DNA from: a virus
Taxonomy: Duplodnaviria > Caudoviricetes
DNA: 64,000 nt
IMG/VR virus record: IMGVR_UViG_3300044712_000786
Span: 96,001-160,000 of that record
Reading direction: 5' to 3' (one strand)
The translations under genes were made by a program, and so were the position numbers. Positions 49,587 to 49,675 of the stretch are shown here, one piece after another. How positions within the stretch are numbered: the first letter of the stretch is position 1; each line of letters starts with the position of its first letter. The notes under the pieces were generated by a model. It did not search any database. It was not told the DNA's origin and worked only from the letters and a program-made list of their open reading frames with translations.

Positions 49587-49675
49587 TGGTGCGAGCGGTA
49601 GGATTTCCACCTACGGCGTAGCTTTCGCTAGACGGCTTAAAAGGCCGTTTCCTTCGTGTCCTCGGTCACGCTCGC
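49587..49675 (-). tRNA. tRNA with Lys(TTT) anticodon and a long variable arm (Leu-like body)
   Basis: GCGAGCG/CGCTCGC-A-CCA; ACGGC-CTTTTAA-GCCGT; TAGC-GAAA-GCTA variable arm; T loop TGGAAAT. Confidence 0.8.

What the first reader, a model, noticed from the sequence alone, without database searches (positions are those of the whole stretch)
49587..49675. Lys(UUU) anticodon on a type II, Leu-like tRNA body
Seen: anticodon loop CT-TTT-AA with a long variable arm (TAGC-GAAA-GCTA) and A73. Known: bacterial Lys tRNAs are type I; LeuRS largely ignores the anticodon; tRNA-Lys(UUU) is the target of PrrC and PARIS-type anticodon nucleases. Inference: either a nuclease-resistant Lys tRNA or a Leu-for-Lys mistranslating tRNA.
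Basis: partly seen in the sequence, partly recalled or inferred. Interest (0 to 1): 0.6.

Follow-up and report, generated by a model that had tools for sequence, protein, structure and literature searches.

The report
Phage lysine tRNA with extra arm
A 203-kb phage carries a real lysine-codon tRNA built with the extra hairpin arm that textbooks reserve for Leu, Ser and Tyr tRNAs. It belongs to a large family of phage tRNAs that I found described nowhere, that most likely still carry lysine, and that may be shaped to survive bacterial tRNA-cutting defences.

Summary
Window 49587-49675 (minus strand) is an 89-nt tRNA with anticodon UUU, A73, encoded CCA and a 4-bp variable arm capped by GAAA.

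"Leu-like" does not hold. The D-arm is of the Ser/Tyr kind, and with the anticodon loop removed the body is least like the Leu tRNAs among class II groups.

It is a member of a large viral family of long-armed tRNA-Lys:
- 110 IMG/VR loci match one strict pattern.
- phiCbK-like Caulobacter phages carry them, annotated simply as tRNA-Lys.
- A model built from 142 other members scores this gene 66 bits, the best hit in the window.

This scan has met the family before on other DNA, and the rewired tRNA elbow on this genome.

Two points are new here. This copy also swaps the elbow pair G19-C56 to C19-G56. Five Actinomycetota MAGs have a long-armed tRNA(UUU) as their only tRNA(UUU) found; in one it sits where a relative has the normal gene.

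Most likely it is a working Lys tRNA, because it carries the full LysRS identity set and AAA is the phage's second commonest codon. Escape from tRNA-Lys-cutting nucleases is plausible but untested. I found no paper describing this class.

The parts
49587..49675 (-). Whole gene: long-armed (class II shape) tRNA with anticodon UUU, 89 nt, CCA encoded
   Evidence: ARAGORN; the MFE fold is the cloverleaf; family model R1 gives 66.2 bits over its full length with no indels
49669..49675 (-). Acceptor stem, 5' strand GCGAGCG; it pairs with 49591-49597 (CGCUCGC)
   Evidence: 7 of 7 Watson-Crick pairs; 6 of 7 positions match the phage's tRNA-Lys(CUU)
49649..49666 (-). D-arm ACCGAGGACACGAAGGAA: a 3-bp stem and a large loop of the Ser/Tyr kind, with A18 C19 in place of G18 G19
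   Evidence: Direct reading; aligned to the family consensus
49632..49648 (-). Anticodon arm: stem ACGGC/GCCGU, loop CUUUUAA, anticodon UUU at 49639-49641; positions 39-41 read G-C-C
49615..49631 (-). Variable arm, 17 nt: C, then stem UAGC/GCUA with a GAAA tetraloop, then CGCC
   Evidence: 1 unpaired nt at the 5' side and 4 at the 3' side are the commonest values in the family, as is the GAAA loop (58 of 150). A 17-nt variable region is the second commonest length
49598..49614 (-). T-arm: stem GUAGG/CCUAC, loop UGGAAAU (U54 G55 G56)
   Evidence: G55 is phage-wide. G56 is matched by C19 in the D-loop
49587..49590 (-). Discriminator A73 and encoded CCA
44022..44100 (-). Companion tRNA-Lys(CUU): 79 nt, 8-nt variable region, A73, acceptor GCAAGCG
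   Evidence: Found only with model R1 (34.4 bits); cloverleaf parsed; acceptor comparison
49510..49583 (-). Neighbouring tRNA(CAU) gene, 3 nt downstream on the same strand. This suggests a polycistronic tRNA transcript
   Evidence: Weak R1 hit (7.4 bits, E 5.8); hand-parsed cloverleaf with 5 of 7, 4 of 5 and 5 of 5 pairs in the three stems. No promoter or terminator signal above chance near the Lys gene

Best explanation
This is a working elongator tRNA that reads AAA (and probably AAG) and is charged with lysine by the host's LysRS. It is a divergent member of a widespread, mainly viral family of tRNA-Lys genes that carry an extra variable-arm hairpin. It is made as part of the phage's own nearly complete tRNA set. 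It therefore keeps the commonest Lys codon translatable during infection, independently of the host's tRNA-Lys(UUU).

Shown: the gene, its fold, family membership, the complete LysRS identity set, a compensated elbow (A18/G55, C19-G56), and heavy AAA use by the phage.

Inferred: lysine charging. Also inferred, more weakly (about 0.3-0.4), is that the extra arm, the changed D-loop and the G39/C41 anticodon stem make the tRNA a poor substrate for defence nucleases that cut host tRNA-Lys(UUU): PARIS AriB, PrrC and bacterial Schlafens.
For: 1. It is a real tRNA: a clean cloverleaf inside a cluster of about 35 tRNA genes.
2. It folds as an L. Position 56 covaries with the D-loop base after A18 across the phage's tRNAs: G19-C56 in most, C19-G56 in Lys(UUU) and Arg(UCU), A19-U56 in Ile(GAU), U19-A56 in Asn.
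3. Family membership. Model R1 was built from 142 long-armed Lys tRNAs of other phages, without this gene. It gives this gene 66.2 bits, the top hit in the window and 17.5 bits above the next tRNA.
4. The arm matches the family's commonest features: 1 unpaired nt at the 5' side, a GAAA loop, 4 unpaired nt at the 3' side, and A73 (115 of 150 members).
5. The family is large: 110 viral loci for a 22-base pattern and 151 long-armed Lys(UUU) plus 18 Lys(CUU) genes in the fetched loci. It includes cultured phiCbK-like Caulobacter phages, whose records call them tRNA-Lys.
6. Identity. U34, U35, U36 and A73 are the E. coli LysRS determinants (PMC9976931, read), and all four are present.
7. The phage's Lys(CUU) tRNA shares 6 of 7 acceptor positions and A73 with this tRNA, the best acceptor match among 31 phage tRNAs.
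8. AAA is the phage's second commonest codon, 39 per 1000. In a PurA-like protein AAA aligns with R, K and Q in homologues, and the one AAA in a conserved column is K in 97% of them.
9. The phage encodes no LysRS or TyrRS.
10. Five Actinomycetota MAGs have a long-armed tRNA(UUU) as their only tRNA(UUU) found. The flanks are ordinary chromosomal genes and no tyrosine integrase lies on those contigs. In one of them it occupies the neighbourhood where a relative has the normal gene.
11. For the evasion idea: AriB cuts tRNA-Lys(UUU), Thr(UGU) and Asn(GUU) at 40|41 and depends on U39, A41 and U16 (bioRxiv 10.1101/2025.02.04.636281). This tRNA has G39 and C41 and no U in its D-loop.
12. Among tRNAs that sit beside long-armed Lys genes, the long-arm fraction is high for Asn (17 of 61), Thr(UGU) (10 of 47) and Ile(UAU) (8 of 18), and low for Asp (1 of 66) and Gln (1 of 53).
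Against: - There are no charging, expression or cleavage data.
- Rfam RF00005 does not recognise the gene.
- A73 and U35 are also the critical TyrRS determinants (PMC9976931), and the D-arm and the 3-4 unpaired bases 3' of the arm resemble tRNA-Tyr, so dual Lys/Tyr recognition is not excluded.
- From my own knowledge, not tested here: class II synthetases approach tRNA from the variable-loop side, so an extra arm could hinder LysRS.
- 31 of 150 family members have U73, not A73.
- No close orthologue of this exact gene was found, so there is no lineage-specific covariation for its arm.
- The MAG argument is weakened by incompleteness: 33-44% of related genomes show no tRNA(UUU) match at all.
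- The anticodon loop is unchanged, so loop-reading nucleases such as PrrC may still cut it.
- The co-occurrence figures come from loci that were selected for long-armed Lys genes.
Confidence: 0.78

Rival explanations
1. Ambiguous or Tyr-charged tRNA. The host TyrRS recognises A73, U35 and the Tyr-like long arm, so some AAA codons are read as Tyr.
For: A73 and U35 are named as the critical E. coli Tyr determinants (PMC9976931). The D-arm follows the Ser/Tyr pattern CCGAG..GAAGG. The arm has 3-4 unpaired 3' bases, like the phage's own tRNA-Tyr, which has 3. With the loop removed, Tyr is the second-closest body class.
Against: - G34 and A36 of the Tyr anticodon are missing, while the full Lys set is present.
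- AAA is too frequent (39 per 1000) for tolerated misreading.
- The first base pair varies in the family (C1-G72 and A1-U72 occur), and 31 of 150 members have U73.
- The family includes UUU/CUU pairs.
- In five bacterial genomes a long-armed tRNA(UUU) is the only tRNA(UUU) found and coexists with a normal tRNA-Tyr.
Confidence: 0.07
2. Leu-charged mistranslating tRNA, the first reader's second branch, analogous to the nematode nev-tRNAs.
For: It has A73 and a class II shape. E. coli LeuRS ignores the anticodon (PMC9976931). The nev-tRNAs are a precedent: class II tRNAs with Gly or Ile anticodons that are charged with Leu (PMC3333845).
Against: - It lacks G18:U55 and G19-C56, reported as important for leucylation.
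- The D-arm is unlike that of Leu tRNAs, including the phage's own.
- Body similarity to Leu is the lowest among the long-armed classes.
- nev-tRNAs derive from tRNA-Leu and read rare codons. This tRNA reads the second commonest codon.
Confidence: 0.03
3. Non-decoding tRNA look-alike: a decoy or sponge for a tRNA-Lys-specific nuclease or another tRNA-binding factor, not used in translation.
For: Earlier notes of this scan describe several tRNA mimics in this phage (not checked here). The gene escapes RF00005. The GNRA loop on the arm could be a binding handle.
Against: - It has every feature of a decoding tRNA: a 7-nt loop with U33 and A37, A73, CCA and a compensated elbow.
- It is the only credible UUU tRNA in a phage set that otherwise covers nearly all amino acids.
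- Relatives are the only tRNA(UUU) copy found in five bacterial genomes.
Confidence: 0.08
4. Decaying pseudogene or chance cloverleaf.
For: No close orthologue was found. The T-loop is odd.
Against: All 21 stem pairs are intact. The odd T-loop is matched by a compensating D-loop change that other tRNAs of the phage share. The family model gives E 1.6e-19.
Confidence: 0.02

Closest known systems
Canonical bacterial and phage tRNA-Lys(UUU) of class I shape, including the T5 tRNA-Lys that escapes PARIS AriB (PMC11464382; bioRxiv 10.1101/2025.02.04.636281)
   Same: Anticodon loop CUUUUAA, A73, 7/5 acceptor/T architecture, and presumed lysine charging. Like the T5 variant, it differs from E. coli tRNA-Lys at positions 39 and 41 and in the D-loop.
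   Different: A 17-nt hairpin arm instead of a 5-nt variable loop; a 3-bp D-stem with a large Ser/Tyr-like D-loop; an elbow of A18/G55 and C19-G56 instead of G18/U55 and G19-C56.
Bacterial class II tRNAs (Leu, Ser, Tyr)
   Same: A long variable arm, and a D-arm of the CCGAG..GAAGG kind as in Ser and Tyr. A73 as in Leu and Tyr.
   Different: A Lys anticodon. G73 of Ser is absent, the GUA anticodon of Tyr is absent, and the Leu-type D-loop and elbow are absent. There are four unpaired bases 3' of the arm. By comparison Ser has 0-1, Leu 2 and Tyr 3 in this phage and, from memory, in E. coli.
Nematode nev-tRNAs (Hamashima et al. 2012, PMC3333845)
   Same: A class II body carrying an anticodon that belongs to a class I family.
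   Different: nev-tRNAs derive from tRNA-Leu, are charged with Leu, are weakly expressed and read rare codons. This tRNA is not Leu-like, carries the cognate Lys identity set and reads a very common codon.
allo-tRNAs and 8/4 tRNA-Ser and tRNA-His of bacteria and phages (Mukai et al. 2017, PMC5389517)
   Same: Irregular long-armed tRNAs found in metagenomes and in phage tRNA clusters, with non-Ser anticodons.
   Different: allo-tRNAs have 8/4 or 9/3 acceptor/T stems and Ser or Ala identity elements. This tRNA is 7/5, has A73 and has no G3:U70.

Membership tests
Elongator tRNA (general) | Cloverleaf with a 7-bp acceptor stem, a 5-bp anticodon stem, a 7-nt loop with U33 and a purine at 37, and a 5-bp T stem with a 7-nt loop | tested here: met
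   all stems fully paired; loop CUUUUAA
Elongator tRNA (general) | Match to Rfam RF00005 at the gathering score | tested here: not met
   no hit even at E<1. The cause is the non-canonical T-loop and D-loop. Eleven other tRNA-like genes of the cluster that R1 finds at E<=0.04 were also missed by both ARAGORN and Rfam
Elongator tRNA (general) | Elbow contacts 18-55 and 19-56 | tested here: met
   They are present in altered form: A18/G55 as in nearly all tRNAs of this phage, and C19-G56. Position 56 covaries with the D-loop base across the set. The register was assigned by eye
Bacterial tRNA-Lys (class II LysRS substrate) | Identity set U34, U35, U36 and A73 (PMC9976931) | tested here: met
Bacterial tRNA-Lys (class II LysRS substrate) | Class I shape (4-5-nt variable loop) | tested here: not met
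   17-nt variable region with a 4-bp hairpin
Bacterial tRNA-Lys (class II LysRS substrate) | Charged with lysine | not testable with these tools
   Indirect support only: codon usage, the isoacceptor pair, and sole-copy relatives in bacteria
Viral long-armed tRNA-Lys family (model R1) | High score with a covariance model built without this gene | tested here: met
   66.2 bits, E 1.6e-19, model positions 1-89 with no indels
Viral long-armed tRNA-Lys family (model R1) | Arm geometry: 1 nt, a 3-4-bp stem, a GNRA tetraloop, then 3-4 unpaired nt | tested here: met
   the window has 1 nt, 4 bp, GAAA and 4 nt. Those unpaired counts and that loop are the commonest in the family; 4 bp is the commonest stem length; a 17-nt region is the second commonest length
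Viral long-armed tRNA-Lys family (model R1) | Canonical T-loop GGUUCGAAUCC | tested here: not met
   The window has GGUGGAAAUCC. A few members (L062, L067) also have G55, but none found has G55 G56
tRNA-Leu (E. coli-type identity) | A73 | tested here: met
tRNA-Leu (E. coli-type identity) | Tertiary G18:U55 and G19-C56, and a Leu-type D-loop (PMC9976931) | tested here: not met
   A18/G55 and C19-G56, with a D-arm of the Ser/Tyr kind. Body similarity to viral Leu tRNAs is the lowest of the long-armed classes
Bacterial tRNA-Tyr | A73 and U35 | tested here: met
Bacterial tRNA-Tyr | Anticodon GUA (G34, A36) | tested here: not met
   The anticodon is UUU. The phage has a separate tRNA-Tyr(GUA) candidate at 50314-50400 (14 bits with R1; cloverleaf parsed)
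tRNA-Ser | G73 | tested here: not met
   It has A73. The phage's own two tRNA-Ser candidates have G73
nev-tRNA-type mischarged class II tRNA | Derived from tRNA-Leu and reads rare codons | tested here: not met
allo-tRNA | 8/4 or 9/3 acceptor/T stems | tested here: not met
   7/5
AriB-resistant phage tRNA-Lys (T5 type) | Substitutions at U39, A41 and U16, the positions shown to matter for AriB | tested here: met
   G39 and C41, and no U in the D-loop. This is a sequence comparison only
AriB-resistant phage tRNA-Lys (T5 type) | Resists cleavage and rescues infection | not testable with these tools
   Needs cleavage and plaque assays

The most novel reading that the evidence does not exclude
Adding a variable arm is a general phage counter-defence. 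Here it is combined with a rewired elbow and a changed 39-41 stem. It would turn the tRNAs that defence nucleases cut most often (Lys-UUU, and in other phages Thr-UGU and Asn-GUU) into a different body plan that the host's synthetase and ribosome still accept but the nucleases do not.
Probability: 0.3. Interest if true: 0.8.

Novelty: new variant of a known kind. Interest (0 to 1): 0.58.

Why it matters
Textbooks and reviews limit long variable arms in bacteria to Leu, Ser, Tyr and Sec tRNAs (for example PMC7609411). A large natural family of long-armed tRNA-Lys would show that LysRS, EF-Tu and the ribosome accept this body plan. It would also give annotators a reason to stop treating such genes as errors. 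tRNA-Lys(UUU) is the shared target of PrrC, PARIS AriB and a bacterial Schlafen (PMC1484252, PMC11464382, PMC13056530), so these genes offer a directly testable route by which phages might disarm such systems. They could also serve as natural scaffolds for tRNA engineering. This copy further shows that the arm can be combined with a swapped C19-G56 elbow.

Tried and rejected
1. Close relatives of the phage:
   - A megablast of 4 kb against cultured phages found nothing.
   - The ParB-like neighbour gave no viral relatives.
   - The DUF2828 protein gave one distant locus, L246 (44% identity), with no long-armed Lys.
2. Orthologues of this exact tRNA:
   - The pattern with T-loop GGTGGAAATCC gave 40 viral matches, all chance.
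   - The D-arm pattern found nothing in viral or metagenome contigs.
   - A relaxed metagenome pattern gave one chance match.
3. Codon-meaning test against L246: only one shared gene with 4 AAA codons, too few to use. I replaced it with the PurA-like alignment, which is still a small sample.
4. The RNAalifold consensus of the MAFFT alignment omitted the variable arm. I therefore analysed the arm separately by folding each variable region. Grouping by predicted fold makes "100% paired" circular. Only two results count: the several pair types per position, and the energy gap to shuffles (-3.1 against -0.65 kcal/mol).
5. nhmmer profiles of the body classes were too weak on 79-nt targets, and one alignment failed. 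I replaced them with global pairwise scores.
6. I looked for a gene that travels with the long-armed tRNA in the actinobacterial genomes. Only the roughly 90-nt tRNA itself is shared between the different contexts.
7. The promoter and terminator scan showed nothing above chance.
9. Rejected readings: a sequencing error of UAA; an 8/4 allo-tRNA; and a recent derivative of the phage's own Leu, Tyr or Ser tRNAs.

Full report
**1. The object.** The window is bases 96001-160000 of a 202,704-bp IMG/VR phage record with direct terminal repeats. Its GC content is 39.4%.

The finding's coordinates are exact, but the gene is on the minus strand. ARAGORN calls an 89-nt tRNA-Lys(ttt). Its parts are:
- a 7-bp acceptor stem (GCGAGCG/CGCUCGC), then U8 G9;
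- an 18-nt D-arm;
- the anticodon stem ACGGC/GCCGU with loop CUUUUAA;
- a 17-nt variable region made of one free base, a 4-bp stem closed by GAAA, and four free bases;
- the T stem GUAGG/CCUAC with loop UGGAAAU;
- A73 and an encoded CCA.

An unconstrained fold returns this cloverleaf (-30.7 kcal/mol, z = -2.06). Rfam's general tRNA model does not report it even at E<1. That is explained in section 2.

**2. Setting: a phage tRNA set with a rewired elbow.**
- ARAGORN finds 16 tRNAs in the window and Rfam adds four more. The family model R1 picks up at least eleven further tRNA-like genes at E<=0.04, plus a weak hit (E 5.8) at 49510-49583. Cloverleaves can be drawn for all twelve: seven clean, five less so.
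- These extra genes include Lys(CUU) at 44022-44100 and candidate Tyr(GUA), Ser(UGA), Ser(CGA), Thr(UGU), Ala, Trp and two CAU tRNAs.
- Nearly all have U54-G55-C56 or A54-G55-C56 instead of U54-U55-C56, and "UAG" (A18 G19) instead of GG in the D-loop.
- Position 56 varies together with the D-loop base that follows A18: G19-C56 in most, C19-G56 in Lys(UUU) and Arg(UCU), A19-U56 in Ile(GAU), and U19-A56 in one Asn. I assigned the D-loop register by eye. The automatic alignment is not consistent there, so this is a reading, not a statistic.
- For the present gene it means the odd T-loop (G55 G56) is compensated. That argues for a folded, L-shaped, selected molecule.
- Earlier notes of this scan describe the rewired elbow on this genome and on others. 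I reached it independently.

**3. It belongs to a large family.**
- A loose pattern (Ser/Tyr-type D-arm plus CTTTTAA) returned 79 viral loci. 32 of them hold ARAGORN Lys(ttt) genes of 82-94 nt. Several also hold long-armed Lys(ctt), and some also hold a normal 75-nt Lys(ttt).
- A pattern that does not constrain the D-arm (GACTTTTAATC, 17-30 nt, GGTTCGAATCC) matched 110 viral loci. It matched only 29 loci in one genome for each of 185,579 prokaryote species.
- Across the fetched loci there are 151 long-armed Lys(ttt) and 18 Lys(ctt) genes.
- Members include phiCbK-like Caulobacter phages (CcrRogue, Karma, Magneto, Swift and others). Their GenBank records label them simply tRNA-Lys.
- In 150 distinct sequences the variable region folds better than shuffles (mean -3.1 against -0.65 kcal/mol). 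The commonest features are one 5' free base, a 3-4-bp stem, a four-base loop (GAAA in 58; GAAA, GCAA or GUAA together in 77) and 3-4 free 3' bases (CAUC in 52). N73 is A in 115 and U in 31.
- Stem positions show GC, CG, AU and UA alternatives.
- D-arms are mixed: some resemble class I 4-bp arms and others the Ser/Tyr-like arm.

**4. Membership of this gene.**
- I built covariance model R1 from 142 family members, leaving the window's gene out. With filters off, the best hit in the whole window is 49587-49675, at 66.2 bits, E 1.6e-19, full length and without indels. The next tRNA scores 48.7.
- Among 1,653 tRNAs of all kinds from the fetched loci, 34 of the 40 nearest are long-armed Lys. The nearest is only about 74% identical.
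- With the anticodon loop and CCA removed, median global scores are: long-armed Lys 8.5, Tyr 4.0, Ser 2.0, Leu 1.5, class I Lys -3.0.
- No orthologue with the G55 G56 loop turned up in viral or metagenome scans. A few family members (L062, L067) do combine the arm with A18/G55.

**5. Which amino acid?** According to the identity review PMC9976931:
- E. coli Lys identity rests on U34, U35, U36 and A73. All four are present.
- E. coli Leu identity rests on A73 plus the elbow and D-loop contacts G18:U55, G19-C56 and A15-U48, not on the arm or the anticodon. The two elbow contacts are absent, and A15-U48 was not assessed.
- Tyr identity rests critically on A73 and U35. Both are present, which makes TyrRS the most serious rival.
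- The two Ser tRNA candidates of this phage have G73, and SerRS recognises the long arm plus G73 (PMC7609411). That is absent here.

Further indirect evidence for Lys:
- The phage's Lys(CUU) tRNA has A73 and matches this acceptor at 6 of 7 positions, the best match among 31 phage tRNAs.
- AAA is the second commonest codon, 39 per 1000 against 32 for AAG, so misreading would hit the whole proteome.
- In the PurA-like protein, AAA codons align mainly with R, K and Q in 119 homologues. The single AAA in a column that is at least 80% conserved is K in 97% of them. No AAA falls in a conserved L, Y or S column. The sample is small.
- The phage encodes no LysRS or TyrRS, so a host enzyme must charge the tRNA.

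**6. New evidence from cellular genomes.**
- Several of the 29 genome hits are lone genes in Actinomycetota MAGs.
- In five of them (G001-G005) the long-armed gene is the only match to a pattern that catches both class I and long-armed tRNA(UUU). It is also the top R1 hit (74.8-86.4 bits). Normal tRNA-Tyr was seen in all five, and class I tRNA-Lys(CUU) was identified in three.
There is one Lys(CUU), one long-armed Lys(UUU) and no class I Lys(UUU).
- The flanks are ordinary: DsbA-like in one case, and a histidine kinase with an HTH_67 protein in another. No tyrosine integrase lies on those contigs.
- In the families of G001 and G002 every other genome with a match has a class I-length gene. That is 23 genomes in G001's family, not counting the unpublished G017 and G042, on which no claim rests, and 32 in G002's family.
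- G001 and its relative G014 share flanking genes on both sides (82-86% protein identity). G014 has a class I tRNA-Lys(UUU) between them. G001 has the long-armed gene there instead, at another spot, in the opposite orientation and beside unrelated DNA.
- Across the five genomes only the roughly 90-nt tRNA is shared between three different contexts. That points to replacement by transfer.
- If these genomes are complete enough, a long-armed tRNA(UUU) can stand in for the normal one in a cell, which implies lysine charging. Caveat: 33-44% of related MAGs show no match at all, so absence of a class I copy is suggestive, not proven.

**7. What the arm might be for.** tRNA-Lys(UUU) is cut by PrrC (PMC1484252), by PARIS AriB (PMC11464382) and by a bacterial Schlafen (PMC13056530).
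- AriB cuts Lys(UUU), Thr(UGU) and Asn(GUU) between positions 40 and 41. It depends on U39, A41 and U16. T5's resistant tRNA-Lys carries U39A and A41C.
- The window's tRNA reads G39-C40-C41 and has no U in its D-loop. The arm also starts three to four bases after the cleavage site.
- Among tRNAs co-resident with long-armed Lys, long arms are frequent in Ile(UAU) (8 of 18), Asn (17 of 61), Thr(UGU) (10 of 47) and Lys(CUU) (18 of 84). They are rare in Asp (1 of 66) and Gln (1 of 53). One long-armed Thr(UGU) is among the closest bodies to this tRNA.
- 36 of 146 loci carry a class I Lys(UUU) beside the long-armed one.
- These are correlations from loci chosen for long-armed Lys, and the host is unknown. 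I put the counter-defence reading at about 0.3-0.4.

**8. Literature and prior notes.** Seven full-text searches and reading of the reviews on non-canonical tRNAs and tRNA identity found no description of long-armed tRNA-Lys. The nearest precedents are the nev-tRNAs and the allo-tRNAs, and both differ in defining features. This scan has reported the same family several times on other DNA, with the same reading.

**9. Verdict.** "Leu-like" and mistranslation are not supported. The gene is most likely a working Lys tRNA of an apparently undescribed, mainly viral, long-armed class. In this phage it carries an additional swapped elbow pair. Function of the arm is unproven.

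Noticed in passing
window 36837-54963 (minus strand): Nearly all of the roughly 35 tRNAs have G55 with A18 in place of U55 with G18. A second class has T-loop AGCGUUA or AGCGUAA (A54...U58 in place of U54...A58): Tyr, Ile(UAU), Ala, a second Asn, and Glu(UUC). Position 56 covaries with position 19. Earlier notes of the scan cover this.
   Followed up: partly
window 39432-39506, 40901-40984, 41793-41878, 41883-41974, 43520-43594, 44022-44100, 46946-47020, 48094-48167, 49510-49583, 50235-50307, 50314-50400, 54053-54128: Twelve tRNA-like genes missed by both ARAGORN and Rfam but found with model R1. Their anticodons are CAU, UAA, CGA, UGA, UUC, CUU, CCA, GUU, CAU, UGU, GUA and UGC. 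R1 scores range from 35.4 down to 7.4 bits, and the hand-drawn cloverleaves are imperfect for some.
   Followed up: partly
window 54549-54641 (minus strand): A second long-armed tRNA with a class I anticodon: Ile(UAU), 93 nt, 24-nt variable region, A73. Long-armed Ile(UAU) also sits beside long-armed Lys in other loci (8 of 18).
   Followed up: partly
window 40992-41069; L297 37-112 and L303 36-113 (G001): The reverse oddity: tRNAs with Leu anticodons (CAA, UAA) but a class I length. 43 of 116 Leu tRNAs in the fetched phage loci are under 80 nt. In the actinobacterial MAG G001 the class I-length tRNA(UAA) has the same acceptor stem as its long-armed tRNA(UUU), and a T-arm that differs at one loop base.
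   Followed up: no
L253-L257, L283, L286 (Actinomycetota MAGs G001-G005, G014): A long-armed tRNA-Lys(UUU) is the only tRNA(UUU) found in five bacterial genomes. In G001 it replaces the class I gene that relative G014 has in the same neighbourhood. Only the tRNA itself is shared between the three genomic contexts.
   Followed up: partly
window 60240-61604 (minus strand): A phage-encoded adenylosuccinate synthetase homologue (PF00709, E 4e-60), about 42% identical to bacterial PurA. I did not test whether it is a PurZ-type enzyme for 2-aminoadenine DNA.
   Followed up: no
window 47025-47268 (minus strand): Four tandem weak Rfam hits of about 50-60 nt each (Dicty_Class_I_RNA, 25-29 bits, below the gathering score). 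This suggests a small tandem array of similar hairpins inside the tRNA cluster.
   Followed up: no
window 49736-50176 (minus strand): A PD-(D/E)XK endonuclease ORF (PF11645, E 4e-26) lies immediately upstream of the Lys tRNA. It may be a homing-type nuclease within the tRNA cluster.
   Followed up: no
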